Assembly: GCA_020137815.1 (NCBI GenBank)
Contig: CM035362.1
Location: 2,480,001 to 2,544,000, forward strand
Origin: Hormiphora californensis
Taxonomy: Eukaryota; Animalia; Ctenophora
Length of the DNA stretch: 64,000 bases
Reading direction: 5' to 3'
Positions 1-64,000 of the stretch are shown here, in pieces. Position 1 is the stretch's first letter, and each line of letters begins with the position of its first letter. Position numbers and translations under genes: made by a program. Below the pieces are notes generated by a model that was not told the origin of the DNA, did no database searches, and was given only the letters and a program-made list of their open reading frames with translations.

Positions 1-106
1 TCTCTCCCTCTCTATCTATCTATCTCTCTCCTCCCCCTCTCTCTTCCCCTCTCCCCTCCCCTCTTTCTCTCCCATCACCCTCACCTCAGTGACACCTCAC
101 CCTCTC

Positions 107-637
107 CCTCCAGGCATGTTTGGGGATCTACTCTATCTCCCTCCCCTCTCCCCTCTCTTCCCCTCACCCTCTCCTTTCTCTCTCCAGGCATGTTTGGGGA
201 TCTACCAGCCAGTACAGGATCACACAGAGAGCTCATCCCCCTCTCTCTCTCTCCCTCTATCTATCTATCTCTCTCCTCACCCCTCACCCTCACCCTCTCC
301 TTTCTCTCTCCAGGCATGTTTGGGGATCTACCAGCCAGTACAGGATCACACAGAGAGCTCATCCCCCTCTCTCTCCCTCTTTCTCTCCCATCACCCTCAC
401 CCCTCACCCTCTTTCTCTCCCATCACCCTCTCCTCTCTCTCTCTCCAGGCATGTTTGGGGATCTACCAGCCAGTACAGGATCACACAGAGAGCTCATCCC
501 CCTCTCTCTCCCTCTTTCTCTCCCATCACCCTCACCCCTCACCCTCTTTCTCTCCCATCACCCTCTCCTCTCTCTCTCTCCAGGCATGTTTGGGGATCTA
601 CCAGCCAGTACAGGATCACACAGAGAGCTCATCCCCC
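107..637 (+). repeat. Tandem array of a 3' splice site plus exon start (5 copies)
   Basis: CT-tract + CCAG|GCATGTTTGGGGATCTA..., with the AG ending at 113 (truncated copy), 187, 313, 448 and 583. Confidence 0.95.
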
Positions 638-3600
638 TGATTGAGAAGCTGATTGAACTGCTGAAGTCTGGCGGTGGTAGGAATACCCTCCTAACCGCAA
701 TTACAGGTAAACATATATATGACCATATTTGGTCATACAATTGTAAGACCATATGTGGGCAGGAAGTAACTGGTAATACTCCAACTACAGGTGGTACAAA
801 GACAACTCTGACAAGCACGGAGAGAGCGGTACGGCAGCCGGCATTCCTTGCGCCAGCTGTAGCCCCAGCACCTTCCAAAATCCGGCTGGTTCTACCCGGA
901 ATTCCAGAGGAAGAAGAAGAGGAGGAGGATAATAAGGGTAAGTGGTAGAACAGTACCACATACCTAATTACAGCCAGGAAAACAGACGTTTTTTGTCAAG
1001 TTAATCGATTTCCTAACTCCTAATTCCATCACAATTCATTAGTTGGATCTGGTGGGCTGTACAACGTTCCCGGGGGAGACTTGATAACTCAACTTCATAC
1101 TGACTCTGGGGAGCTCTTAGATCTGACCTACAAACAAGGGAAACTGTACGATCAGAATGATAACGTGGTTACAAACCTCTTCAAGGTAGATGTTACCATG
1201 GTAACCACTGGTTGGTTAACCTAACATCATCAGGGGTTTCATTGCGGTTATCATTAAACCCCTTCTTTCACAGCATGGTGACATTGTTTATGGAGCTGAC
1301 GGTAAACTCTACGACAAGGATGGCAATGTTATCACCTTGTTATACAGACCTGATGGTTCCTCCTATCCCATCAATTACGAGAAAAAGAAGAAGAAGAAAA
1401 AGTTGAAGAAACAACCAACTCGTGTCAAGGTTACCCTATCTGAGACGGATCCTAAAAAACTTGCAATGAGGCAGATGTTGGAGAAACATACACTTGAAAC
1501 AGTGGCTCTGGAGGACGAGCTAAATAGGAAGAAAATCGAAATGGTCAACCGAATTATCAGTGAGTTTTATTGCTCCTTCATAAAGATGAATATGTTCCGT
1601 TGTGCTCCTTTATAAAGATGAATATGTTTAGTTGTGCTCCTTCATAAAGATGAATATGTTTAGTTGTGCTCCTTCATAAAGATGAATATGTTCCGTTGTG
1701 CTCCTTCATAAAGATGAATATGTTCCGTTGTGCTCCTTCATAAAGATGAATATGTTCCGTTGTGCTCCTTCATAAACACAATTAAACAGGTGATGCGGAG
1801 AGTAAGAAGAGAGCATTGAAGAAAGATATACAGGGACAGCTGCGTGTGGCTCTACAGAATGCCTCAGATACCGACGATAAGAATGCTATCGTCATGAGGT
1901 AAGTCATGAGTCGCAGATCAAAAAAAGTCAAAGCTTCACAGCTACCAGGTTGGGCCAGACCCAGAAAGGAACCCGTCAGTATGATAAATGTATGGTTAAC
2001 TGTTGACTAAGAAACACATAACCCCTGCAGGTACGCCGAGATGTTGGATAGAAAGACGGGTGAGATAGAGGAAGAGAAGAAGAAGGCCTTGAAGGATATG
2101 ATGGAGAAACTTGCTGATGAGATTGTGGAAAAGAAGACAGCATTAAGGAAGAAACAACTTGCTGAGGTATAGTAATTAGTAGTTGATTTAGATTTTCAAT
2201 GCAGTTATAAGTTGCATTTTGAAGGATAGGAGACTGATATAATAGATGATGATTGATTTTATATTTGTTTTAACGTACTTCCTCTTTAGATTGACGCGGC
2301 GGGTCTGACAGAGGAGGTTGATGCAGCTCTACCCCATCTCAGACACAACATTGTCCCTAACAGATCCAAAATAGCAGAGGACCTGGAGAAATTAGCAAAG
2401 CAACAGGTATGATAAAGAGATCACGGCGGTCTGATTCCCTCCGAACCCGCTCATCTTCTTCCCTCCCAGCATGAGCTCTCCCAGCTGTATTACTAATCAC
2501 CCTTATTACAGGAGATCCTGGCAGCTGAGATGAAGAAGTACCTGGCGGAGGATCAAGCCAGAGCTGAGATGAGCATGGATAGTGATATGAAAAGGGAGCT
2601 GGATAGAGAGATGGAGGAGAGGTGCAGGAGAATAACTTCTCTAGGTGAGAATTATTATGATTATTATAGGAGCTTCAACAACAGTCGATGTTAACACAAT
2701 CCCACGGTAACCACATGTTAACAACAGTCGATGTTAACACAATCCCACGGTAACCACATGTTAACTCCCTGATGTTCTATGACAGGCTCCAAGACGGCTG
2801 ATGTAACGGAGAAAGTCAGGGAGATGGCGACTAGTTCAACCCAGACACGTAACACGGGCAAGATGAGAGATAACATGAGAGAGAGGATGAAGAGAAAGAA
2901 AGAGGAACGAAGGTAATAATTCGAACTGAAAACATGCACCTAAAGTAAACCAACTGTGTTGCTTTTTCGATTTTTGAGTGATTGAACCTTATAAATTTCC
3001 CTATAGGAGGAAGAGTGCAGTTCCTACGGAAGATCATCTGATACAAACTGATCCCGAAGAGGGAGAGGAAGGGGCGTATAGAACTGATATACCTGGCAAC
3101 CTGCATATTGCAGATGATCTCAAACAAGATGTGAGTTTATCCACAGACTACAACCTCCACATCCTCTCCAAGTGTCCCTTGACCCAGCCTTCTGTATGTC
3201 TCCCTTCCTTTATAATAGTCCACGCCCTTGACCCACGTCCCACGCCTCTATCTCCCCTCCAAAAAACTCTCCATCTTTCCAAGCATCCCAAACCACACCC
3301 TTCACCCCTCTCCCTCCCTCTCTCCCTCAGATTCAGCTGGATGCGGATCTCCATGATGCCACGCTGGCCATCCTCTCTGTGGTGGAGGAACATGCCCGAA
3401 ACCAGGAGGAGGGAGACACCGTCAACCAGCTAGAGAGGGTCTTCAGAGACCAACTGAAGGGGGAAACAGATGAACTGATTGCTGCTTACTCTGCTAGTGT
3501 CACTGAGGTAGGATATTTCGAGAATCATGTTCATATCTTTTGTTTGGATCACGCACTGCAGATTGTTCACTGTTTAGAATCATGTTGCTAGGCAGATTGT

Positions 3601-6600
3601 TGTTCACTGTTTAGAGTCATGTAGCTAGGCAACCGGCCAACCGGCCAACAGGAACAACTTGAGTTGCTATAACAACGTCACTCCCTCATCTAGGCAAGAA
3701 GCAGGCTGTCTCATGAGAAGGATCGTGCTCACAGCAACTTAGAAAGTAGGCTCGCTGCTAGGAAGAAGCTGAGAGAGGAAATGACGACACGGTCTGTCAA
3801 GGATGATACTGTTAATGAAAATGGACTTGGAAAGGTACTGCAGTAAAATTCGCCCTTCCGTATCATACTTGCTCCTAATTCCCTCTCGCCCAGCTCCCCG
3901 TATCAGACCTTGCATCCACATTCCACGTTAGACCTTGTACAATGTTTTGAATTTCAAAGCTCAAGTTCAAATAGTTATACAGCAGCTCATTAAATTAAAC
4001 ACCTCCCCTCCTTTCACAGCTCGGCCTATCAGAAAGTGAAGTTCAACACGAGGTAGATACCCTCACGGACAAAATATCCAGTAAACTAGATCTTGCTAAA
4101 TCACAGGGTGATCTGGTTAGGAGCCTTGATGACAAGAGATCAGCTGTCATTGACCGACTCAACAAGGTATATTTAGCTTAAGAAATGGGTTGGAGTTGGG
4201 GAGTGGGAATCGTTATTAGGGGTGGGAGTTAGATGGCTGGGGTGAGGTCTTGAACCACTATATAATATACTAGCGCACCCACGCATCTCCAAATTATAAT
4301 AGAGATATGCCTCCTAACACCTATTCCCCTCTCAGGAAGAGGAGACTCAGAGAGATGCTGATGAAAAAGAGGAATCTCTCCGATCTGTACGACTTGCTGA
4401 GACCCTAACTTCTAAAGTTGACTCCTCCCTGTCTGCTAAGGAGGCGGAGTTTATCAAAGAGCTCAAGGAACGAGAGCACCAAATGGAGGAAAATGAGAAA
4501 GAAAGATTGATGAAGGAGCACGCGAGGTGAAATGGCAAAATTGAAGGAAACTCTGACTGCTCAAAAAGACAAACAAGTGTCAAGTATGAAGGCACGACTT
4601 GAAGAGCGACGAAGGCTCAAGGAGATGAAGATGCAGGAAAAGCGGGCTGCCGAACTGGAGAGAGTGAGAGTTGAAGGAGAGAAGGAGATCACCCTAGGCA
4701 GGAGGAGGGGGAGACCAAAGAGAAGGAGAAAGCAGGCGCTATCCACTCTGGTTCACGATATGTTGGATGTGGGAATGGATGGAAAGGCCCAGGCTATTAT
4801 CCACCACATGTTGACACAACGCCATCTCAAGGAACGAGTAATGTTGGATCGACAACAGAAATCTGAACTAGCAGCAGCTGTCCAGCAGGCTCGTTGTGAC
4901 GTCACGACATCACGTGACGTCACGCGTGATCAAATCCTCACGCGACAAGAGGAGGAAATAGCGTCACTACTCGAGGAGTCTGCTTCCCTTGCCCCGGAGA
5001 TCCTGGTGAAGAAACAGGAAGAGTTGAGGAAGAGACAGAACAGAGAACTTGAGGAGTTCGATGCAGAAACCCAGGAGGAGCTGGAAAATAGGGTGACTGA
5101 AGTGACTGCAGAACGGAAGGTTCAGTTTTCTGTCCAGACTCTAGAACTCAAAGAGAAACAACTAGTTGAGATGAGCCAGTACCTCAGGGAGCTGACCGGA
5201 CAAGAAGACAGCACGGCTGCTAAAGAGGCCGTTGAAATGGCCAGACAGGCCCAGGAGCAGCGTGCTGCAATCACAATGGAAACCGAACAGAAGATGGCGC
5301 TGCTGAAGGAGGAGAGACTGAAGAGGGAGGAGGAGATAAGGAAGAAGATGGCCGAGGAGGTATCTGTGTTAGAGAGAGAGCTAGAGGAGGAGGAGAAGAG
5401 ACATAAACAGAGGGAGGTAGAGGTTGAGAAACAACATGATCTGATGGCAAGGAGGAAGTTAACAGATCGGGAGAGAGAGTTGACTGGCGAGTTGAAGGAT
5501 GCAAGTGAGATGGAGAAAGAGGCGATACTTGCTAAATACAATGAGGATTGCAAGAAGATTTCCAGTCTGATGGGTAGTGAGAAGGAAAAGAGCAGGAATA
5601 AGTTGAAGGAACAGTTAGAGGCGAGGAGAAACAAACGGAAAGCTTCAACTCTGAAGAAACTGGAGGAGAAGGAATGTGAGGAGATGAGGGAATTAGATGT
5701 TCAGATCAGATCCACCAAATCCCAAGCTCTACTTGATGGTGCCCAAAGTATTGACAAAGTCTCTCAATCTACCTTCCTATCTGGTCCTGGTGCAGGAGGA
5801 TCACAAGATGAGGAGGGTGGGGATCAGGGAGAGGGAGGAGAGTTGGAGAGGATGTTCCACGGAACGGATCTTTTCAAACAACTCTGTAGTATTGAGGAGA
5901 TGTTAGGTGTTAAAGCCGGAAATGTCCTCAAAGTGTCTGGCGATGCTAAATCCAGACCTTATTTGGATATCAGGGATGCACAGTGGGCCAATAGTGGCAC
6001 TTTGAAACCAATTGATGCTACTAAACTGTCACCCAGCAACTTCGTGGTATACAGGTGATTATGATTTTCTCTTTTTCAATATTGTTTAGTACCTTACGTA
6101 TTACTACAACAAGTTGTGAGACTGTGAGATTATCAAGAAAGATCTTCAAGCCTCCTTTACTCTCATTACAACGTGATTCCCTTGATTCCCCCTTCTAACC
6201 GCAACTCCATGCGTTTCCAGGTTTGGTCTGTTCCTATCTCGGCTGCTGAAGAGTCGTTGTGGCTTCCCATCAGTCACTGTCCTACTAGCAGACTCACTCC
6301 CTCATAACACATACAGGAACAACGCTTACCGACACTCTTACTTCTACAAGGTATAGACCACGAGACCTGCTTCTCATATCAAGTTAAATTGTGTATAAAA
6401 CCTAACAGTAGGGTTTTTGTAAAATCCCGAGGACCTATCCCCGAATAATAGGAATTTTTGTCTCAAGGTTGATGAACAAGTCTTGTTTGTACGGAAAGAG
6501 AGGACGGATAGTGTGGGAGAGTTCTGCATTGTGGTGGCACACGCTCTAGCCCATATTCACACCGAAGGTATATGACAAGTGACAACTGACAAATGACATA

Positions 6601-8051
6601 ATAAACTTTTAAATCAAGTATAATGTACTCCTTCATAAAACTTTATTATAAAGTTTTATGAAGGAGCACATTATACAGTGTACTCCTTCATAAAACCTGC
6701 CATATATTAATATATCTCTCCCCCTGATAGATATGCGTGACGACAACAGTCCCTTCTTCCTACGACACTTTTATCGTGCTCTCCGGCTAATCTGTACTGA
6801 CATGTTCTTCGGCCGGACATCCCAGCAGACTGGCCCTGCTTTGGGTGGCGATGATGTTAATACTTGGGAGTATTGTCTCTCACTTGGAAGGTAAGGCATC
6901 GTGTGAATACTGTTTCAACTAAAAATAATCTCAAATCGAATTTCAGATCTCCCATTTTAGGTCGAACTTGTTTAAACAGGGTTATATATTAGAAACGCAT
7001 TCACCCCTATAACTATTTTCAGATCCAACTCTGAGAAGTGTGATGTGCTGGGTTCCCTTGTTAACCTCCGTGTAACTGAACCTACCTCTCTGAACTTCTC
7101 ACCCCACGAAATGGTGAACCGACTGGAACAAATCAAGGACTCCAGTGAGTGTTATAATTAATTTGTGTCTTTCGGTACCAACATTGGCAACACTTTATAG
7201 TTTATTAAAAAGTTTGAGTTTGTTTGTAGAGTTCGAAGTTTTGGTAGCAATAGCCACGAATTTGAACTGCCCATTTTCAAAACTCACATTTCGCAACCTT
7301 CTTTTTAAGACGTGATGCACGATCTGAGGTCCATGACTCTGGAGGATAATACTCCTTCATCAAACTATCTACAGAGGAGAGTTGAACAACTAAACGGTCT
7401 GTCCGAGGGGTCAGCTGATTTCAAGACTACTCGAAAGGTATGTGGTAATGACAACCAGGGGGGGGGGCTGGTTGTTCTGTGAGGGGTTTAGTTGTTATTT
7501 CTTTTAGATCACAGCTGGTCTTGATATTCTTTGCCATGCTACGCAGTCTGTCTATCGGCACTTAAGCTTACGCTCGCCCTTCGGGCTCGCGTAAGCTCGC
7601 ACCGGGCCTTCGGCCCGGTGTGAGAGCTGACAGACAAGGAACATGTCAAGATATTCTCTGACCAGAATCAGAAACTAAAATTACGGCCAATTCCCATGCA
7701 GGCGGCAACATATGACTCAATCATAAGAGGAGAGAAGGAGCAACTTGGACGGCAACTTGACGACCTTTCTGTGAGAACTCTAGAGAATGCCAAACGTGCC
7801 CGACAACTAGCACTCGATAAGGTACGTAATGATAATGAACAGATGGAAAACAAAACCAAATAAGAGAGGATATTTCCCCCTTTGTTTCTCATTTAATAGA
7901 CTAGCAAAACCGCACACATTTCCAGGCTATCCTGTCATTTGATGTGCAAGAATCCCGAATGGAAAGTCTGTTTGGGGAAAGAGATGAAATTACGAGCAGG
8001 ATTGATGCTCTCGACACAGAGCTACAAAAAAAGCAGCAGAAGAACGAATAA
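584..8051 (+). CDS. 3' portion of a large multi-exon coiled-coil protein with a globular C-terminal domain (5' end outside the window)
   Basis: About 20 phase-compatible GT-AG exons, e.g. 584-706, 791-937, ~1274-1559, ~4336-6054 and last exon 7926-8051 ending TAA. E/K/R-rich heptads are followed by YLDIRDAQW...VTVLLADSLPHNTYRNNAYRHSYFY...VLFVRKERTDSVGEFCIVVAHALAHIH. One apparent +1 indel lies at ~4528. Confidence 0.85.
1571..1776. repeat. Intronic 32-bp minisatellite (~6.4 copies)
   Basis: Unit TGCTCCTTCATAAAGATGAATATGTT(CC/TA)GTTG. Confidence 0.95.
6619..6696. repeat. 57-bp palindrome plus an adjacent third copy of the TACTCCTTCATAAAAC motif
   Basis: TATAATGTACTCCTTCATAAAACTTTA-TTA-TAAAGTTTTATGAAGGAGCACATTATA, then CAGTGTACTCCTTCATAAAAC. 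Confidence 0.85.
7531..7649 (+). mobile_element. 119-bp MITE with GC-rich internal hairpins
   Basis: 8-bp TSD GATATTCT (7523-7530 and 7650-7657). Termini TTGCCATG...CATGTCAA. An internally deleted inverted copy lies at ~54301-54385. Confidence 0.8.
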
Positions 8052-22888: not shown

Positions 22889-25800
22889 ATGATACGGGTA
22901 ATTTGGCTACTTTATTTTGCCGGTAAATGTTCTATCATGTTCAATAGTCACGTTCACATGTGTCTGCAATCAAATGAGAGTTGTCGTGATATATATCTCC
23001 CAAATATTACCTCTAACAAAAGCTCCAAAAAGCACCAGCCTCTCCAACCAACCAACCAAACATCTCCAAATTATACACGCCTCTATCATTTCAGGGTGTA
23101 CAGTACTGGGAGATAGATACTGCAGCACAGTTTACAACTCCTGTGAGAGGGCAGTACCATCTTCGTGGTCAGATAAATCTAACAATGAATCATCACTTCT
23201 GTTAGGTTAGCCTAGATCTGTAGTAATACAATTGGGATTTTGGCAATTTTAATATATGCACTGTTATAGGTCAACATAAAAATTCTTTCTCCTCATTTTG
23301 TACATAATCACCCTGATCACTGATCACCCCCTCCCCCCTAGGTGGTGAAGCATCCAATGATGACCGGTATACAGCGGTAGTGAGTGCTATAGTGCCTCTA
23401 TCTGAATGTGACAAACAGGGAAACTGCGTGACTCAACCACATCGAGCACTTGATGTTGTCGGGTACGGGTCTTTAAATTTAGGGCACCAGTCACCACTAA
23501 ACAACACCTGAAGCATTTGTTTTTCGTTTGTTGATTTAGAATCAGATTCCAATTCTTCCTCTTACTAACTACAGCCTATGTGTTTTATGTGGAGTAAAAG
23601 TCCCTTGTTACCTAAAACTCGAATCGTTACAGTTTGATATCGGCTCTAGAAACAGTAACGGTATCCGGTGATGTGTGTTTGGTGGTGGAGGTCTGTGATA
23701 CCCAGCATAACCCGATTAGGGCCACCAAAATAGTGAGTCTATAAGTGCCGGACACCTGCACGGAGTGGGCCCGGGGGACTTGAACCGTTCGTCCCGGGAA
23801 CCGTGGAGATTGAACATTTCAATGCAATTACATGTGTCTAGTTCTAAAGTTGGTTTCTGTCAACTGTTGATCATCAAATTTTCCTGATTCCTAACCAATG
23901 ATATACCTGCACGTAGGTTGGCTCCTTCAACTACTACACCGCTGTTGGGACGTGTGGAGGGTGTGAGAACTCTGTGTGTCTCACAGAGTCTTGTGGAGAG
24001 TCCACATGTAGTGGTGGAGGAAGTGGTGGAAGTAGTGGTGGTTGTGGGACATGCTCTAGGTTTGTTTATTATAGGCAATTCTTTTTTGTTTTTATCTCTT
24101 ATCTGCCAATTTTATATATAACTTGCTTCAGTCTTCTGTCTTCGGTATTTTGAAACCTGAAAGTTCTAAACACACTCCCACTCCCACCAGGTCCCATATT
24201 GCTATCCTGGGTCCAGGCTCACCCCGAGAGAGTAAAGCTCTGGCGGACATAACGACAGCATTGGATCTACCCCAGATACTGTATAACTCTGGGACTAACT
24301 TTAGTGATCCTAAAAGATACCCTCTGTTACGTCATCTTGCACCCGACTATGAGGTAACGTGATGAATGATCTGTCTTCTGACTATGAAGTTTGAGTACAA
24401 TTATTGTACTAACTTGAATTAATAACTTTTGTCAATTCAACGACCTCTGTCCGATAGTATGTTATGATTCGTCAGTAAGAAATCAAATGTTTGAACTTAT
24501 AGGTACAAGCTGAGAAGATGATATCAATTGTTAAGGAGATGGGGTGGCAGTACGTTGCTGTCATTACAACTTCTGATCCATACGGAACCATCGGGTACTA
24601 GACGTGTAGTGTGATGATCTTTTTTTCATATTATCATTTATGCCAATGCTCTGACCACGGCTCTCGAAAGAAATTAGAATCGGGCAGGACAATGCTCTGA
24701 AAGTATCATTCCATTGAAAATACTAATTATTCTATCTCGTGATTTATCAGGTATGAGCTGCTGAACAAAAAGTTTACTGATCTGGTAGCAAGTCAAGATG
24801 AAGGGGTTGATAAGAACTGTTGTCTGCAGCTCTCAACCCGGTTATTGAACTTTGAAATGAGCCCTGATGATATCAAGGTGCAGTTATCTGCCCTAAAGTA
24901 AGTGTAATATCCAGCTTTATACAGCAGCTGTTAGTTTTGGTAATGAAATTATCCCTCTGTTATGGCTCACTATGCAATAAAAGGGGTGACTTCGTAACCA
25001 ACTGTTAGTTTGTATTATAATATTCTCTGTGACCTATCAATTATAAGCTGAATATTTCACTGCTAGAACGAGGGTAAAGGTGATAATTCTATGGATGGAG
25101 GGACTCTACGCAGATCCTGTCCTTGGTTATTTTAATGAAATGGGAAGGAAGGACACAGTGTTCATTGCATCTGATGGGTGGGCCGTGGATTCCCTGCTCC
25201 TTCATAAATATAGACATCTTTTATCTGACAGGTATAGTTCACTGCTCCTTCATAAATATAGATATCTCTTATCTAACAGGTAGCACTATACAACACACTG
25301 CTCCTTTATAAATATCTATTATAAAAAGTTCAAAACGTGATTTTTAATAATCTCGTCTCATCACATTTCCAGATTTGTTGGCGTGTTTCCAGAGACTGAA
25401 CTCAGCCACAATCTCAAGTGGGAGACGTGTCCAGGAGTGATCGCACGAATTACCAAGAACAGCGATGCTGTTAAAACGTAATTCACACTTTTATTTCTAG
25501 TTACTAAATTCCTACTAAATTCTTCCTAAACTCTTATTTATTTCTTCCAGATGTGAAGAAGCGGAGGCCTTGGTATCAAGATCACTGGTAAACGGTTATG
25601 CAGGGTCAATGCAGAAGGCAGTTAGTTTACTTCAAGAATCTTTCAATCCCGGAACACCACAGAAACCCACAGCTGCACTCCTAAAGTGAGAACATAATAC
25701 GTCATTTAAAATGTTGCTAAATGCCTTTTAGTTTGAACTATTTTCTAATTGAGAGTCTTGTTGTAATACGCAACCCCCTCTTGGATCCATTGCAACCTAT

Positions 25801-28800
25801 TCTCGCTACGCGACCTCGATCTCACTCAGGTGTCAATGTCACCAACCCCCCCCCCTCAGATCTGCCATCATGGCCCAGTTGGGATCAAGACGGGATGTTT
25901 CTGATAGAATGCTGGTGTATAGCGTTAACAAAGAAGGAAAGCTACTCCCCACTACATCCTACCTTCAATACCCACAGAACATATCCTCCTCTTGCAGTGA
26001 TCCCTGTGGTACCGGACAATACAGGGTAGGTTGTAGACAGGAACCGACCGACACAAGTAAACAACCAATCGGAACTCGTTATTGAGGTCACGTGACTGGT
26101 TATCAGCTAATCAGGGACCAGTATTTCCTGATTCGGTCGGTTCCTGGTTGTAGAGATATTGAGGTAGATCCCAGACTTTCAGATATGACCTTTTAGTCAG
26201 TCTGAGCTGGCGTGAGAAACATTATAATTCACAAGATTTCAAACCACACAAGGGCAGCTAGTACCCCACGAGAGGACTAAATGCCGGGAAGTTTTTTAGT
26301 ACCCTCACTCACAATCGAGTCGCCTGACAAGCTGTGTTCGTATGAACAATTCAAACTCACGAGAACTCATGACCACACACACTCTTTACTTGTACTCACT
26401 CTTATACACACTCTTATATCCAGGTAACCTCGAAGGAGAGTCCGAGATGTTGTTACACGTGCAGGTCGTGTGGAGAGGGGAGTATTGTGGATGAGAATCA
26501 CAAGTGTCTCATGTGTGATAAGTGCTCCATGCCTAACCACAACAGGTACATCTCTGTGTTAGTAGTTTAGAAGTGAATGTTGTTCGTTCGGCGTGTTGGT
26601 TGGCAAAACTATTTTATGTGCCCAAATAAGGAAAACTGATTTTCACTTATCTGGAAATTTGTGAATATTTTTGAATGAATTTGATTGATCCATTCCTCAT
26701 AGTTACCGCTTCAGTTGCAATAGCAACCATAGAATTGGCGTTAAATGTGTAAACAAAGGGAGCTATTTAAACAAGAAATTTGAATATAAAAATGCAAAAA
26801 ACAACGGTTTCCCTGTTTCGGTAGGGCTGAACTACGTGCCTATTCACCGGTGCTATCCCGCTACTGACCAGTACGGAAGCTTTTGCCTGCTGGCTTTCGC
26901 CCCTGGGCCTGTACGCTTCTCACTATCAACCTGGACCGCTTAGCCTACGCTTAGCAGCCCATATCGGCACCAGCCTTAGCGTGGACACCAGCTCAACATA
27001 GCACAGCGCAGCCCAGAACTCCCCACCTCAAGACATCCCGCTGTTAGCGCCTCCAGGTAGCTGGATTACAGACTCGCGCCACTGAGCCCGGCGAGAGAAG
27101 AAGAATTGAGAGCTCTTTATACTGTGCTCTCTCACTGCAGATTATTCCTTATAAGGGATAATTCACAACACACAATACCTCACTACAGCTCTTCCTGCTC
27201 TTACTCTGGCTCATATTCATAACAAAACACATTTATAGCAAGAGTTGGCCTAATTATTTGTCTCACAAAAAACTGTCTTTTCCGAACCGTCATGTACAGT
27301 CGGACCCCGATTTACCGGAACCCCAATTTACCGGGAGGATAAACTTCCCCCATTTGTGTTGTACTTACTCCAAATTTAACCATTTTTACCTCCGTTTCAG
27401 GACGGAATGTGTGGAAAAAGCTGTAGAGAGTTTCACAATCAAAAAGGGAGACTTCATAACAGTTTCAATCTTTGTTATGAGTGTGTTGGGGATGTTCACT
27501 AGTGTTTTTATTATCGTGACTCTATTCAGACACTCTACAACTCCTATCGTTAAGGCGTCCTCTGTTCAACTGTGTTACATCATGCTATGTGAGTTCTTGT
27601 ATCGGGGAGGGGGGGTGTACTACACTATTGGGACTATAACAGAGAATTAGGAAAAGGAGAGGGGTACTTCCCCCTTCATAAGGGGAGTGTGTGGGTGGCG
27701 GGAAATTTAGAAAAAGAATGGTGGAAATTCCACTGGCCATGAAAGTATGTACCTCTATACTAGGGTTAATTCTTGATTAGACATACAGTTGTAATTAAAT
27801 CCTGTTAATTTAAACTTCTCCCCTACAGTTAGTTTGATTGTCCTGCTACTAGCACCTATTATGATGGTGATGGGACCTGGGGAGACTACCTGCCCCCTTC
27901 AGAGATACGTCATAGGTAGGTCATTGTCAGGAACCGACCGAATCAGGAAATACTGGTCCCTGATTGGTTGATAACCAGTCACGTGACCTAAATAACGAGT
28001 TTTGATTGGTTGTTTACTTGTGTCGGTCGGTTTCTGGTCATTGTACTTCATACTTCATTGTCTTACATGTGGTTTCATCTGGGTATGAATGAATGATACT
28101 AAACAACTTTGTTAATTCTCCCAATTGATTCAATCCTTAATTCCCCGTGTGTTTTAGGTCTGGGTACAGTTATTCCCATTGCTGTCCTCTTTGCAAGGAC
28201 CAACAGGATAAACACGATATTCAACAGGAGATCTCTGGTGATAAACCAGCTACAGAAAATGACCATGAGTGTGAAATACAATGTCATCCTTGTAGCTGCT
28301 CTTGCGTTTATTCAGGTATTAATGTTAATTGGAAAATTACAATAAAGTTTATTGTAACTATCGAATTATGTTTAATGTAAACGATTTTGAAATGGGGTTT
28401 ATGTGGTTTAACCCCATTTTGTTCAGAGAATAATTCTAGAAATCATTATGCCCCCTTTCCTTCAGTTAATAACATACCCCCTCTGTTCATCATCTGTTCA
28501 TAATATCCCCCCCCCTCAGTTTATCATCTGTTTTGCACTGCACCTGTTCCACGATAAGAGCATGCAGGATAATGGGGAGCACTCTATACACGTTAAAAAG
28601 TTATGCATAATGGATATACACCAACACAACTTTAAAATGTGTAATGAGGTAATGACTATATGACGTCATAATGACTATATGACGTCATAATGACATAATT
28701 ACAACAGCTGGGGAACAGTATCCCTAAGATGATTTACCAACTGCAGCTAAATTAATACTTTTCTCCCTGAGCGTGGGAGTAGTATAATACTCGTATTACA

Positions 28801-31800
28801 GACAGTTGAGTATTACCTTGAGAAAGTGTACCAATTATTAATTAACTAATTAACTCTCTTCCTACAGGAACAGATGGTGCTCGTCTATGTTTGGATAGGA
28901 TATGTTTGTGGATTGATCCTCGCTACCACTGTGGTGGCTTATAAAACACGGAGACTACCTACCAACTTTAATGAAGCTAGGTGGGAAGAAAGAACTTTCC
29001 CTTCCCTAGTCTCTAGAGCAGTCTCTTCATGGCTGCTTCTCCTAAATCACCCCTGATCTCCCCCCCCCCCCCCCCCCCCCCCCGGTTGTGTCCTGTTGAG
29101 TGAACTTAGTAAATAACTCCCCTTTCCTAATCTCTAGAGCAATCTATTATATCTCCCCTCCCAACCCCTCCCAACCCCGACCCCAGGTACATCTCCTACC
29201 CCCGGACCCCCCAGGTACATTTGTCTGGTTATGTTGGTGGTAATTGCCCCCCCAGGTACATTTGTCTGGTTATGTTGGTGGTAATTGCCCCCCCCCCCCC
29301 CAGGTACATTTGTCTGGTTATGTTGGTGGTAATTGTCCCCCCCCCAGGTACATTTGTCTGGTTATGTTGGTGGTAATTGTCCCCCCCCAGGTACATTTGT
29401 CTGGTTATGTTGGTGGTAATTGCCCCCCCCCCCCAGGTACATTTGTCTGGTTATGTTGGTGGTAATTATCCCCCCCCCCCCCAGGTACATTTGTCTGGTT
29501 ATGTTGGTGGTAATTGTCCCCCCCCAGGTACATTTGTCTGGTTATGTTGGTGGTAATTGTCCCCTCCCCCAGGTACATTTGTCTGGTAATGTTGGTGGTA
29601 ATTGTCCCCTCCCCCAGGTACATTTGTCTGGTTATGTTGGTGGTAATTGCCCCCCCCCCCCCAGGTACATTTGTCTGGTTATGTTGGTGGTAATTGTCCC
29701 CCCCCCCCCCCAGGTACATTTGTCTGGTTATGTTGGTGGTAATTGTCCTCACAATCTCCACCGTCACTACCTACATGGTCCTGGATGACAGGGCTAACAT
29801 TGTCTACCAGTGTTGGAGCATCATCATTGCAGTCTACTCTATACTTGGTTAGTACCACCACCATATATGGGCATACACTACCATATATGGACATACACTG
29901 TCATATATGGTGATTATTGGCGAGAAAGTTGGTAAACTACTTATAACAGTAACACATTACACCCATCCCAGGTATCATATACGGCCACAAGATGTATGTT
30001 ATCTACGTTATACCAGAGGCAAATACCCCCTGTGATACTAACATAGCCCTGAAAGAGTTTATTAAAAGGGTAAGGTCTTGTTTAGCTAGTAACCACCCAA
30101 TTTAGCACCATGATCAATCAAGAGGCTTGTAGAATACAACCATTTGGGTAATGTACAGTAACTGTACAGCAACTGTACCCAAAGTCTGTATACTTATGTA
30201 AATGAGTATCTTCATATTTGATTCCGTAACTAATGTCTGTCGCTACCCACCTAACTCTGGAGCCTGTTGTTGATTACTAGAAGTAGGCAACACACATGCT
30301 ACACTATACTCAAAAAGCAGCCCTGCAGGGCCCTGATTTCTAAAAAACACATAACACAATCTCTCTTTCTGAGAGCATCTAGACAGGGGGTACGGAGGAG
30401 TCAACAAATAGTGTTGTAGTACATCGTCCACGTCGTAAGAAGTTTGTTTCCAGCTTTTCATTGAGACAACTTTAAAAAAAGGAGAGCTGATGTATCTACT
30501 GTGTGCGTTTGTTGTGTCTTTCTCTGTTTGTGTCTTCATGTTTGTGTCTTTCTTTTTGTGTTCGTGTCTTTTTGATTTCGTGCTATTATGATTTATGTTT
30601 GTGTCTTTCTGTTTTTGGGCTATATACTGTTCGTGCCTTATTGTTTTTGGGCTATTATGTTTGTGTCTTTCTGTTTTTGGGCTATATACTGTTCGTGCCT
30701 TATTGTTTTTGGGCTATTATGTTTGTGACTTTCTGTTTTTTGGCTTGATTTTGGGTTATTTCTATTAAAGTTTAACTGGCAAATGTCAGTCCCTACTCCG
30801 TTATTGTCTGTTACATGGTAGTTTATACTGCTAGTGTGTCGCTCATATTCGTGGTTTGGCTGTTTATTTTAATGAAACATCATCATGTCAACTGTTGTGG
30901 TTGTTTAACGACCATGATGGCAGAGAGATAACGAGGGAGGGCGAAAGGAAGCAAGGAAAAGAGGAAGGGAGGTAGAAAATGTGAGATGAAAAGCTGTTTT
31001 ACAGTGTGACGGGCTCCCACATTTCGGGATATTTTCAGTTCCAAGTTTGGTAAAATTTTAATGGAGACATGAAACACCCTTCCTTTTACACTCCCACACT
31101 CTTGTTACCCACCCCGACACCCGGCTCACCTCTATAATCCCCGATACCCCACTCCACCCCACTGGGACCCCACTCCAACACCCCACCCACCTCTCTGTAT
31201 GTTATAGAGCGGACGGAGCAGTAGATCGGAGAGTGTATCCCAACAACCAATCACCCCTTCAATCCGCCGGACAGCCTCTGATCGCCGTCCCGGGTACAGT
31301 GTTTCCACTCTGGCTCTCACCGCCCCGCCGCCCACCCGTCGGACCATGCACCGTCCCTCCACGCTGTACCGGCAGCAGGAAAGCAGGGAACTCTGGTCGG
31401 GTACCCAGGGTGGTGACGGGAAGGCCGCTGAAGTTCGCAGATTTTATCTTGGTCTATACCGCCGCTTTATGACCAACTGATAATGACACGCTGAGAATGG
31501 GGTGCAACCAATACACGCTGCGGTTTGTGTTGGCACTCGCAGAGCTCTGAAGGGGTGTTTTTGAAGCCTTGAATACTACCAGTTTTTAGCACCGATCTGT
31601 TAGGGACCGTTTCTACTTCTACTATCCGAGTTGTGTTATAATACTTCATCTATTGAAGCCGGCACATTTTATCACGCTGCTATATTTGACGGCCATTCGT
31701 TTTATTCCGCTGACTACCACTCGCTCTAGCACGTTTTACTCACTTCCTTGATCATCCAATCTACAAAGCTGTGCCACCATTTAGCTCACTTCATTAAGCT

Positions 31801-32639: not shown

Positions 32640-34265
32640 CCCCATGATAGTCTTTCAGTATGTTTTCAAGTTGTTCTTGACACAGTTCTGCGGACCAAAT
32701 GAAATTGTCAGTGTTTGCTCCACATCCTCCTATCGTCAGTGGAAAGACTCGTTAATCAGGGTAAACTTCACCATAGGTCCAGCCTCCAACAACCTCTGTC
32801 TCCTTTGCCTCTTTCTCTCCACATATCCCTCACATATCTGCAGACATACGAAAATAGCAACCCCCATAACACCAACAGAGCTCATCATCCAACTACCATG
32901 GGCGTGATGGTTGTTTATCTGTTGGAGTAGGGAGCCAGCAGCCAGGAACCCCAGGGAAGACCCTGCATTCCATCCCAACACCCACAATGTATCACAAACA
33001 TTCTTCTGCCTGTGTGAAAGGTGCCTCTCTCCGATGTTAGTCTGCATCGACTCCATGTACTTGAGGGTGATACAGGAGCAGATGGGATCACCTAGCCCTG
33101 CTAACACGATCCCTACCCAAGAGAGGTACTGAGAGTTGGTGTAGAGGGTGTCCATTGTAGTGGTGTAGAATGTGAGGAGGAGACCGACAGAGACCATGGA
33201 GCCACCAAGGATGCACTGTTTACCAACAGATAGGATCTTCCTATCTCCAATAAACCCGCCGACAAAAAACCCAACAGCTACCGAAATAGGGATACATCAT
33301 GACGTAGAGACTCGCCTTAGCGATGGATATGCTACAGCAGTGGCTCAGGTAGGGTGTGGTTCACCATCAGGATGTACGGCCCACACGAGTTTATCAGGAG
33401 TTGCCCAAATAAGGGCACAACGACTAGTTTTCGTCAGCGGTTCCTCGTCCTCTTCCTCCATGAGGGGGGTTAGGTCTTCAATAGAGGGTGCCTCCGGGAT
33501 AAAGGGGGTTGTATCACGAGGGATGAAGATTATACAACACGCCATAGCACACGCCATAACGGTTATCGCGAAGGCGTACGGTGCGATGAATCCCCATTTC
33601 TCGTAGAGATGATCCTGCTGCTGCTGTTGCCATGGTTATACCAACATAACATGAATGTACCTGTTACCAGACTGTTTATTAACACAAACTTGCCCGGGAA
33701 CCATACCCTCACACAGTCTATTTGGGCTCGGAATATGAGCGCAGTCAGCACCCCCAGGACAATTCGAATACTCAGGCATGTCAGGGAGAAGGTGTGTTTG
33801 TTGGAGATTGAGTCGGAGATGGAGAACCCCACTGAAAATGCTATAAACACAACCAGAAATGATACAAGGAGGTATTTAGAGTTCATTTTGATCTTTAGTT
33901 TAGCAAGTCCAACCTGAATAGCGACATCAAAGATTGGTGCTATGACACACCCAATACCAATACCCGCTGCAATAAGTCCCAGGATTAGTACCCGCCACAT
34001 CTCTCTCAGCCTGGAAGTGTATAACAAAGAAGGTACTCCCAATATACGTATTCAAGTTGAGAGATATACAGGAGAAGGAGAGGGATGCCAGGAGGAGGTA
34101 GCCACCACAGGATAACGTTTTGAGTGTTTTTGGAGGTAGGGAGGAGCATTCACTGTCGGTGTAGGGAGGTGGGCTGTCTGCCAAGAGGGTTGGGGTTCTG
34201 GGAGGGGTGCTGGGAGGCGAGCTGATGGGGGAGTCATCTATCAGGGGTGAGACTGTGTCGTCCAT
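32640..34265 (-). pseudogene. Intronless MFS transporter (SLC18B1-like) broken by several frameshifts: pseudogene or sequencing errors
   Basis: Consecutive hydrophobic segments in shifting frames: LLLASLSFSC..STFFV / LILGLIAAGIGIG..RIVLGVLTAL..VRVWFP / LYEKWGFIAPYAFA / VAVGFFVGGFIGD..VGIVLAGLGDP..WVLGWNAGSSLGFLAAGSL. At least 5 frame changes. The 3' end is approximate. Confidence 0.7.
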
Positions 34266-34510
34266 GACTACAGCTGAAACAAGGGGTTGGAATTGTTAGA
34301 GTTGAGTAATTGGGTTCACAATGTTGGATACATAGAGGGCGATTAAAAATTAAAATTTAATTTCTACTTCTAAGCAAGCTTCAAAATAATGAAGTATATA
34401 AAGTGCTAATATATACTCAAATGATGGAGTGTGTAAGATAACAGACAATAATGATCCCAACAGAGTGTTTCAGATATAGAGATGATGTTCAAGCGTCCTA
34501 AAGCTCTCAA

Positions 34511-50946: not shown

Positions 50947-61695
<10,749 letters not shown>

Positions 61696-62367: not shown

Positions 62368-64000
62368 GGTAAGTCGGAAGAACCTGTCCGTTCCTCTCAT
62401 GAGCGCTCATGAGTGTATCATGAGTGTGTCATGAGTGTATCATGAGTGTATCATGAGCGCTCATGAGACGTTTTTAGGTGTTTCAACGTCTCATGAGCGC
62501 TCATGAGTGTATCATGAGTGTGTCATGAGTGTATCATGAGCGCTCATGAGTGCTCATGAGACCTTGCTCATGAGCGCTCATGAGACATATGTCTCATCCC
62601 ATCTCTGTTTCAATGTCTCATGAGCGCTCATGAGACGTTTTGACCTACATGTGCTCATGAGTGTATCATGAGACATGTCTCATGAGACGTTAGGGTTAGG
62701 GTTATGGTTGGGTTTAGGGTTGGGCTAGGGTTAGGGCTTTCCTTTAGGTCTAGGGACCCGTAGGGACAGGGTTAGGGTTGACCCATAGGCTTGGACCTAG
62801 CCCTACCCTCTACGGGTCCCTAGACCTAAAGGAAAGCCCTAACCCTAGCCGGTAAGTCGGAAGAACCTGTCCGTTCCTCTCATGAGCGCTCATGAGTGTA
62901 TCATGAGTGTGTCATGAGTGTATCATGAGTGTATCATGAGCGCTCATGAGACGTTTTTAGGTGTTTCAACGTCTCATGAGCGCTCATGAGTGTATCATGA
63001 GTGTGTCATGAGTGTATCATGAGCGCTCATGAGTGCTCATGAGACCTTGCTCATGAGCGCTCATGAGACATATGTCTCATCCCATCTCTGTTTCAATGCC
63101 TCATGAGCGCTCATGAGACGTTTTGACCTACATGTGCTCATGAGTGTATCATGAGACATGTCTCATGAGACATATGTCTCATGAGACGTTAGGGTTAGGG
63201 TTATGGTTGGGTTTAGGGTTGGGCTAGGGTTAGGGCTTTCCTTTAGGTCTAGGGACCCGTAGGGATAGGGTTAGGGTTGACCCATAGGCTTGGACCTAGC
63301 CCTACCCTCTACGGGTCCCTAGACCTAAAGGAAAGCCCTAACCCTAGCCCAACCCTAAACCCAACCATAACCCTAACCCTAACGTCTCATGAGACATATG
63401 TCTCATGAGACATGTGCTCATGATACACTCATGAGCACATGTAGGTCAAAACGTCTCATGAGCGCTCATGAGACATTGAAACAGAGATGGGATGAGACAT
63501 ATGTCTCATGAGCGCTCATGAGCAAGGTCTCATGAGCACTCATGAGCGCTCATGATACACTCATGACACACTCATGATACACTCATGAGCGCTCATGAGA
63601 CGTTGAAACACCTAAAAACGTCTCATGAGCGCTCATGATACACTCATGATACACTCATGACACACTCATGATACACTCATGAGCGCTCATGAGAGGAACG
63701 GACAGGTTCTTCCGACTTACCCCCTAGCCCAACCCTAAACCCAACCATAACCCTAACCCTAACGTCTCATGAGACATATGTCTCATGAGACATGTCTCAT
63801 GATACACTCATGAGCACATGTAGGTCAAAACGTCTCATGAGCGCTCATGAGACATTGAAACAGAGATGGGATGAGACATATGTCTCATGAGCGCTCATGA
63901 GCAAGGTCTCATGAGCACTCATGAGCGCTCATGATACACTCATGACACACTCATGACACACTCATGAGCGCTCATGAGACGTTGAAACACCTAAAAACGT
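62368..64000. mobile_element. Outer Merlin-like palindromic element (runs off the window)
   Basis: Starts GGTAAGTCGGAAGAACCTGTCCG. It is interrupted after 62850 by a near-identical element and resumes at 63722. Confidence 0.85.
62851..63721. mobile_element. Inner 871-bp Merlin-like palindromic element with TCATGAG arrays and TTAGGG-like repeats
   Basis: GGTAAGTCGGAAG...CTTCCGACTTACC termini. 8-bp TSD CCCTAGCC (62843-62850 and 63722-63729). Confidence 0.92.

What the first reader, a model, noticed from the sequence alone, without database searches (positions are those of the whole stretch)
29180..29747. Twelve-fold array of a splice acceptor in which every copy is an AG|GT ratchet-like site
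Seen: the acceptor and first ~33 nt of the GPCR TM6 exon are repeated 12 times (plus a partial copy) with variable poly-C lengths, and only the last copy leads into the full exon. The upstream exon ends in AG and each copy starts GTACAT, so splicing to any upstream copy recreates AG|GTACAT, a possible 5' splice site. Established: first-AG scanning should favour upstream decoys; AG|GT is the signature of recursive splicing and of the tandem-duplication model of intron gain. Inference: the gene tolerates the array by re-splicing or by exon-definition skipping of 11 decoys. With three more cases in this window, this may be a genome-wide splice-junction amplification process.
Basis: partly seen in the sequence, partly recalled or inferred. 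Interest (0 to 1): 0.8.

Follow-up and report, generated by a model that had tools for sequence, protein, structure and literature searches.

The report
Comb-jelly receptor splice-acceptor "mirage" repeat
In a comb-jelly receptor gene, the end of an intron and the first 32 bases of the next exon are repeated twelve times in a row, a kind of repeat already described in lancelets and humans, and the cell likely splices straight to the last copy instead of ratcheting through the others.

Summary
The array is real: 12 acceptor-plus-exon-start copies (11 decoys and the true exon) and a partial copy, in intron 17 of an intact ctenophore class C GPCR. Public contigs of two studies contain the tandem junctions, and one run holds what read as array-free alleles with the same intron, so it is a length polymorphism, not intron gain. 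The copy number of 12 is unconfirmed. This is an amphioxus-type 'mirage' (PMC3087553), akin to human CBS 844ins68. The ratchet reading is possible but unsupported. For it: the regenerated donor scores like real donors, and CAG|GTACAT is this gene's intron-12 donor. Against it: AG|GT only reflects conserved Arg-Tyr codons, 20 of 51 acceptors here are AG|GT, the window's two other acceptor arrays are AG|GC and AG|AC, and units (41-49 nt) are shorter than any intron here (73 nt). Junction duplications are not enriched (3 of 54 acceptors, p about 0.1). Most likely: microhomology-seeded duplication at a C-rich acceptor, direct use of the last copy, decay of mis-spliced RNA. No RNA covers the junction. 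The scan noted this kind before, in this genome and others (unreviewed notes).

The parts
23095..31480 (+). Class C GPCR gene (ANF_receptor, cysteine-rich and 7tm_3 regions), 20-exon model, 5' end not defined
   Evidence: Pfam hits; tblastn; model with direct 28980-29714 junction is one open frame of 915 aa, 49.6% identical over 892 columns to Mnemiopsis P0006
28868..28980 (+). Exon 17 (TM5 and third inner loop, ends ...FNEA-R); ends in AG; donor TAG|GTGGGA
   Evidence: donor scores at the 63rd percentile of 51 local donors
28981..29713 (+). Intron 17, 733 nt with the array; about 156 nt in an array-free allele
   Evidence: X6 record 17
29168..29220 (+). Separate 28-nt duplication of the C-rich tract, AG and 6 exon bases; gives the partial copy at 29187
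   Evidence: TRF period 28, 2.0 copies; also present in X5 record 14
29207..29713 (+). Array of 11 decoy units: 32-34 nt of exon start, C run of 7-14, AG. Each unit is acceptor-like and donor-like at AG|GTACAT and holds a GTAAT branch-like motif that doubles as a weak internal donor (GTG|GTAATT, 25 nt into the unit)
   Evidence: tandem junctions in X1 and X5
29714..29847 (+). Exon 18 (TM6 to start of TM7), the twelfth and only frame-preserving acceptor; its own donor is TTG|GTTAGT
   Evidence: differences in DNA runs are synonymous
26543..26551 (+). Real donor of intron 12 of the same gene, CAG|GTACAT, identical to the nonamer in every array copy
93..638 (+). Second acceptor array, in a coiled-coil gene: exon starts at 114 (partial), 188, 314, 449 and 584 (true); context AG|GC; full-copy spacings 126, 135, 135 nt
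61516..61597 (+). Third acceptor duplication, before the putative last exon of a Na+/H+ exchanger gene: 37-nt unit, context AG|AC, upstream exon ends CG, 8-nt microhomology
   Evidence: this exon is inferred from sequence and frame, not from homology
25190..25320 (+). Donor-side duplication at GPCR exon 8: 48-nt unit with exon end and donor copied downstream (in frame), plus a partial third copy
   Evidence: first donor gives no insertion against homologues

Best explanation
This is a minisatellite made of the intron 17/exon 18 border of a ctenophore class C GPCR, varying between alleles, and the spliceosome likely skips the eleven decoys and uses the last acceptor directly. Origin (inferred): the C-rich acceptor tract misaligned with a short C-containing stretch 32-34 nt into the exon, giving a tandem duplication that then expanded by slippage or unequal exchange; the C runs keep changing length. 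Splicing (inferred): only the last copy is followed by a full exon and lies closest to that exon's donor, and the array lengthens the intron from about 156 to 733 nt, which would favour pairing across the exon. Any transcript ending on a decoy is frameshifted with a stop at least 59 nt before the next junction (shown) and would be removed by nonsense-mediated decay (inferred). The AG|GT is incidental: it comes from the Arg-Tyr codons, and the donor it regenerates would be masked after splicing, as at other junctions of this kind (inferred from Drosophila and mammals).
For: Gene intact only through the last copy. 28 of 28 exon differences listed for DNA runs are synonymous, so the gene is under purifying selection (33 rows were not shown, and one X7 row was left out). 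Two X6 contigs go from unique intron through a single acceptor into the exon continuation (records 17 and 18). X1 and X5 hold tandem junctions, X5 in about ten forms with different C runs. Unit lengths ignore frame. Breakpoints of all three acceptor arrays sit at short matches between exon and tract, and these three tracts are among the 8 most C-rich of 54 (p = 0.002, post hoc). AG|GT background is 20 of 51 acceptors; 12 of 51 junctions regenerate a donor within the real range, 11 of them with no array. Precedents: amphioxus mirages, reported not to disturb splicing (PMC3087553 passages; PMC3902484 passage); CBS 844ins68, where the downstream copy is used (PMC7490669 passages); exon-centric proximity for introns over about 250 nt (PMC9225289 passages); EJC blocks regenerated sites (PMC8184009 abstract); microhomology-mediated duplication (PMC13167724 abstract).
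Against: Three decoys (29304, 29485, 29665) score as high as the true acceptor (14.6-15.8 bits against 14.7), so strength does not single out the last copy. Most introns here are short (41 of 51 under 250 nt), which suggests intron definition, where the upstream acceptor is preferred; PMC9225289 says exon definition reduces the upstream 3' preference rather than reversing it. The regenerated donor (6.5 bits) outscores the exon's own donor (5.3) and the internal one (5.8). Direct splicing and re-splicing give the same mRNA, so an intact frame cannot separate them. In the array-free contigs only 11 letters lie beyond the repeated part, under the tool's 31-letter bridging rule, and an assembler could have dropped a loop. 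EJC and exon-definition behaviour were not tested in ctenophores.
Confidence: 0.7

Rival explanations
1. The copies work as dual-specific sites and much of the correct mRNA is made in two steps. Either exon 17 joins an upstream copy and the regenerated AG|GTACAT is spliced again to the last acceptor (ratchet), or an upstream copy first acts as donor to the last acceptor, cutting the array out and restoring a single acceptor.
For: Regenerated TAG|GTACAT is at the 37th percentile of 51 local donors and above 97% of 880 intronic GT sites; unspliced CAG|GTACAT is at the 51st percentile and is the real donor of intron 12. It outscores the internal GTG|GTAATT 25 nt downstream, the layout of a Drosophila ratchet point with a cryptic exon (PMC8605326 Introduction). 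The zero-length route is the only frame-keeping rescue, as the 25-nt microexon shifts frame. Tandem AGGT sites are used both ways in human UBC (PMC10809524 abstract and section 7).
Against: AG|GT is explained by codons and background. The AG|AC array cannot ratchet, and no GC donor occurs among the 51 modelled introns. A one-unit step (41-49 nt) is shorter than the shortest local intron (73 nt), so a splice to copy 11 would likely be a dead end. Known ratchet points are conserved and lie in long introns; this array is polymorphic in a 733-nt intron. The finished mRNA carries the same regenerated donor in every allele, so it must normally be silent.
Confidence: 0.15
2. The array allele is a leaky or weak allele: upstream acceptors capture a large share of splicing, the products are destroyed, and the allele persists because it is buffered by the other allele or by low need for the receptor.
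For: Decoys are as strong as the true acceptor, come first, and all give premature stops. Short introns suggest intron definition. Alleles without the array coexist.
Against: Arrays occur in samples of two studies, X5 units carry two different synonymous forms of the exon codon at the breakpoint, suggesting repeated origin or turnover, and published mirages give normal mRNA.
Confidence: 0.11
3. The long array is largely an assembly artefact: a short duplication inflated to twelve copies, with C-run differences from homopolymer errors.
For: X1, from the sample with the best match, shows a single tandem junction at depth 11.1, about one haplotype's worth. A one-base frameshift in another gene's exon near 4521-4532 may be an assembly indel.
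Against: X5 shows about ten distinct junction forms. Units 6 and 9 carry private substitutions and two units an interrupted C run. Contig assembly removes alternative paths, so one junction in X1 does not bound the copy number.
Confidence: 0.04

Closest known systems
Amphioxus 'mirage' minisatellites (globin BflGb6 and BflGb9, Adh3, troponin C, PGBD5); PMC3087553 passages, PMC3902484 passage; the original Adh3 paper (PMC117041) was not held
   Same: Tandem copies of intron 3' end plus exon 5' start (BflGb6), unit size within the 10-72 bp given for Adh3, copy number differing between haplotypes, splice signals kept in the copies, both acceptor and donor borders affected in one genome.
   Different: Ctenophore rather than cephalochordate; variation is mostly in a pure C run; every copy is AG|GT; normal splicing was shown by RT-PCR there and is untested here.
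Human CBS c.844_845ins68 (PMC7490669 passages)
   Same: Polymorphic duplication of intron end (52 nt) and exon start (16 nt); the downstream copy is the one retained in mRNA.
   Different: Two copies, not twelve; mechanism studied experimentally there.
Human F7 IVS7 37-bp VNTR (PMC1557585 abstract)
   Same: Minisatellite spanning an exon-intron border, leaving identical, normally silent splice sites.
   Different: Donor side; the first copy is used. It matches the 25190-25320 case better than the finding itself.
Recursive splicing ratchet points (Drosophila Ubx, kuz, Bx; PMC8605326 Introduction) and dual-specific sites of human UBC (PMC10809524 abstract and section 7)
   Same: Acceptor directly followed by a usable donor; tandem arrangement as in UBC; weaker donor a short way downstream.
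   Different: Ratchet points are conserved, in long introns and shown by intermediates; UBC units are 228 nt, exonic and in frame. Here units are 41-49 nt, out of frame, polymorphic, and no intermediate was seen.
Intron gain by tandem duplication (Rogers model; potato RdRp case, PMC4974935 abstract and passages)
   Same: The potato duplication also crossed an intron-exon border; an AGGT duplication can in principle excise itself.
   Different: No new intron or exon results here: donor and acceptor positions equal those of array-free alleles, and the internal donor would give a frameshifting 25-nt exon.

Membership tests
Mirage minisatellite | Head-to-tail repeats whose unit spans an exon-intron border | tested here: met
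Mirage minisatellite | Copies keep splice signals | tested here: met
   All 12 upstream copies have AG; scores 2.6-15.8 bits, within or above the range of real acceptors
Mirage minisatellite | Copy number or length varies between haplotypes | tested here: met
   Array-free contigs in X6, tandem junctions in X1 and X5; contig evidence only, with the caveats given
Mirage minisatellite | Normal mRNA is still made from the authentic site | tested here: inconclusive
   Intact frame and synonymous-only differences are indirect; no RNA covers the junction
Recursive splicing ratchet point | Acceptor immediately followed by a usable donor after splicing | tested here: met
   TAG|GTACAT at 37th percentile; same nonamer as the intron-12 donor when unspliced
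Recursive splicing ratchet point | Cryptic short exon with a weaker downstream donor | tested here: inconclusive
   GTG|GTAATT 25 nt downstream scores 5.8 against 6.5; a small matrix from 51 sites cannot rank these reliably
Recursive splicing ratchet point | Located in a long intron and evolutionarily conserved | tested here: not met
   733-nt intron; decoys absent from other alleles
Recursive splicing ratchet point | Splicing intermediates or lariats at the site | not testable with these tools
   No nascent RNA or raw RNA reads offered
Intron gain by tandem duplication | A new intron position absent from the unduplicated allele | tested here: not met
   X6 record 17 has an intron between the same donor and acceptor without the array
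Microhomology-mediated tandem duplication | Short identical arms flank the single-copy unit | tested here: inconclusive
   Here the arm is only about 1-3 nt of C/TC; clearer in the other arrays (8 nt at 61540-61597, a C run at 93-638)
Class C GPCR (host gene) | ANF_receptor ligand domain, cysteine-rich region and 7tm_3 domain | tested here: met
   Pfam hits on exons (the 7tm_3 pieces fall just under the whole-protein cut-off); homologues carry PF01094, PF07562, PF00003

The most novel reading that the evidence does not exclude
The array is a self-excising ladder: because each copy is both acceptor and donor, upstream copies are really used and then removed by a second splice, so AG|GT borders can amplify to high copy number at no cost while other borders stay at low copy or in frame (12 copies out of frame at AG|GT; 4 copies spaced in frame at AG|GC; 2 copies before a last exon at AG|AC). 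This would be recursive splicing in a short, polymorphic ctenophore intron, with natural array and array-free alleles as a built-in test.
Probability: 0.13. Interest if true: 0.62.

Novelty: new member of a known kind. Interest (0 to 1): 0.24.

Why it matters
As a mirage it is ordinary in kind. It adds a ctenophore case with allele evidence: array, partial-copy and array-free alleles of one intron. That makes a compact natural test of how the 3' splice site is chosen among a dozen near-identical acceptors in an animal with short introns, where upstream sites would be expected to win. If re-splicing were the rescue, it would extend recursive splicing to short polymorphic introns in a very early-branching animal and link junction sequence to how far a repeat can expand. 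It also matters for annotation: such arrays break gene models and short-read assemblies.

Tried and rejected
Genome-wide test of AG|GT enrichment: no whole genome is held, so only 51 introns of three genes were used. RNA: no RNA holder listed; X7 gave one contig 87% alike over 29763-29839 that continues like a spliced exon 18-19 join but starts downstream of the junction and nothing on exon 17; this says nothing about expression or acceptor choice. Intron position in other ctenophores: a motif scan of metagenome contigs found 0 matches; genomic context of the homologues was not available. RNA structure as selector: folding 28981-29850 pairs the AG of all copies including the last (unpaired probability 0.00-0.23), so it does not discriminate. 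Acceptor strength as selector: rejected, three decoys match the last. Frame-keeping inclusion of units or of the 25-nt microexon: rejected, all give stops or shifts. Junction enrichment: 3 of 54 acceptors against 4.1% of intron positions (p = 0.38) or 2.0% after collapsing arrays (p = 0.10, 0.29 without the finding itself); 0 of 52 donors pass, with the exon 8 case just under threshold; 0 of 1099 sampled exon-interior positions. A report of mirages in ctenophores did not appear in my searches (listings only, plus passages of PMC8527503); supplements and subscription papers were not seen. G-quadruplex-driven instability on the template strand (15 G runs) was considered from recall and not tested.

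Full report
Observation. The array is as described: twelve copies of AG followed by the first 32-34 bases of an exon, at 29215 to 29714, plus a partial copy at 29187. The twelfth is the exon itself, so there are eleven full decoys. Units are 41, 48, 44, 43, 46, 48, 43, 45, 45, 47 and 49 nt, the variation lying in the C run. Ten of twelve match the 32-base exon start exactly; units at 29437 and 29573 carry one substitution each. The partial copy belongs to a separate 28-nt duplication with a different breakpoint.

Host gene. Pfam gives ANF_receptor and 7tm_3 hits on nearby exons. The exon has six homologues at 73-84% identity, the named one from Mnemiopsis leidyi, so the window is from a ctenophore. 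A neighbouring exchanger exon is 99% identical to an EukProt entry whose id style I recall as Pleurobrachia; the species is not established. A 20-exon model joining 28980 directly to 29714 is one open frame of 915 aa, 49.6% identical over 892 columns to the Mnemiopsis protein. All six homologues read FNEARYICLVM across this junction. Every upstream acceptor gives a stop 59-563 nt before the next junction. All 28 exon differences listed for DNA runs are synonymous (33 rows were not shown and one X7 row was left out), so the gene is under purifying selection.

Is it real, and is it fixed? Contigs of X1 and X5, from two studies, contain joints running from the exon start back into the C run. X5 has about ten forms with different C-run lengths. 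X6, filed under the same sample as X5, has a 234-nt contig that runs from exon 17 through a different intron of about 156 nt and one acceptor into the exon continuation, and a second contig with one acceptor after 84 unique bases (records 17 and 18). I read these as array-free alleles. Caveats: only 11 letters lie beyond the repeated part, an assembler can drop loops, these runs are 90-99% alike and may hold several individuals or a close relative, and contigs cannot count copies. X1 shows only one junction form at depth 11.1. The intron therefore most likely predates the array, and nothing was gained. Some X5 units carry, at the breakpoint codon, the same synonymous base as the array-free X6 exon, while others carry the window's base, which suggests repeated origin or turnover from the linked exon.

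Is AG|GT a signal? From 51 homology-supported introns in three genes (the last exons of the GPCR and exchanger rest on frame only), 20 acceptors are AG|GT and 10 junctions are AG|GT after splicing. Here the motif is the Arg and Tyr codons. The two other acceptor arrays in the window are AG|GC (93-638) and AG|AC (61516-61597); two of three being AG|GY is expected by chance (p = 0.43). So re-splicing is physically possible. But 12 of 51 junctions regenerate donors in the real range, 11 with no array, and the finished mRNA of every allele has this same site, so it must normally be silent; in Drosophila the exon junction complex does this (PMC8184009 abstract). Units are shorter than the shortest local intron (73 nt), so stepwise ratcheting is unlikely and a splice to copy 11 would likely not be rescued. 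Known ratchet points are conserved and in long introns (PMC8605326 Introduction).

Is there a special process? Junction-spanning duplications occur at 3 of 54 acceptors and 0 of 52 donors (one donor case just under threshold), against 4.1% of intron positions or 2.0% after collapsing arrays (p = 0.38 and 0.10; 0.29 without the finding), and 0 of 1099 sampled exon-interior positions. This fits ordinary duplication in a repeat-rich genome, tolerated at acceptors and purged inside exons, but power is low, and unreviewed notes on other pieces of this genome give higher rates (11 of 62; about 1 in 6) that I did not check. One pattern stands out: the three duplicated acceptors are among the 8 most C-rich tracts of 54 (p = 0.002, post hoc), their most upstream copies are equally C-rich, and breakpoints fall at short exon-tract matches, as expected for microhomology-mediated duplication (PMC13167724 abstract).

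Mechanism. Shown: anatomy, reading frames, site scores, tandem junctions in reads, single-acceptor contigs. Inferred: misalignment at a C-rich tract made the first duplicate and slippage or unequal exchange expanded it; the last acceptor wins because it alone has a full exon and is nearest that exon's donor, helped by the intron growing past about 250 nt (PMC9225289 passages); errors are removed by nonsense-mediated decay. Neither strength (three decoys equal the last) nor predicted structure selects the last copy. I give this 0.70, two-step splicing as a major route 0.15, a leaky allele 0.11, and an inflated assembly 0.04. No RNA covers the junction, and mature mRNA alone could not separate the first two.

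Known kind. Tandem repeats of intron end plus exon start, variable between haplotypes and not disturbing splicing, were named mirages in amphioxus (PMC3087553 passages; PMC3902484 passage; the original Adh3 paper was not held). Human CBS 844ins68 is the two-copy case with the downstream acceptor used (PMC7490669 passages), and the F7 IVS7 VNTR is the donor-side mirror (PMC1557585 abstract). UBC shows that tandem AGGT sites can be used both ways (PMC10809524 abstract and section 7), and a potato gene gained an intron from a border-crossing duplication (PMC4974935 abstract and passages). Three of four mirage features are met here and the fourth, normal splicing, is supported only indirectly. My searches showed no published ctenophore case, but covered open papers only. 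The scan has noted the same kind in this genome and in others, after I had reached this reading.

Verdict. Real, polymorphic, a new member of a known kind; interest 0.24. The boldest reading not excluded is a self-excising ladder of dual-specific sites (probability 0.13, interest 0.62 if true).

Noticed in passing
window 93-638: In this AG|GC acceptor array the three full decoys are spaced 126, 135 and 135 nt, all in frame and stop-free, so upstream acceptors could add 42-45 aa units; unlike the GPCR array, frame may be under selection here (chance about 1 in 9, as two spacings are identical). The upstream exon lies off the window.
   Followed up: partly
window 4521-4532: One-base frameshift inside the long exon of the coiled-coil gene against homologue P0012; assembly indel or broken allele.
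   Followed up: partly
window 6628-6670, 1571-1776, 25190-25320: A 12-base motif forms a palindromic, MITE-like element at 6628-6670 and recurs in the 32-nt intronic array at 1571-1776 and in the GPCR exon 8 donor duplication, where it coincides with coding sequence; it may have seeded that duplication.
   Followed up: partly
window 28480-28530: A degenerate copy of the start of GPCR exon 16 lies just upstream of its C-rich acceptor, perhaps a decayed mirage; a 19-nt repeat also starts right after this exon's donor (28650-28694).
   Followed up: no
window 28981-29214, runs X5 and X6: Intron 17 differs strongly between alleles (replaced segments, no long C run in some, a G-to-A change at donor position +3 in most X5 and X6 contigs) while exon differences are synonymous.
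   Followed up: partly
window 32700-34300 (minus strand): A long open frame resembling a membrane transporter lies on the opposite strand just downstream of the GPCR; not annotated further.
   Followed up: no
window 62400-64000: Inverted arrays of an 11-nt repeat interleaved with short GTTAGG/CCCTAA telomere-like runs.
   Followed up: no
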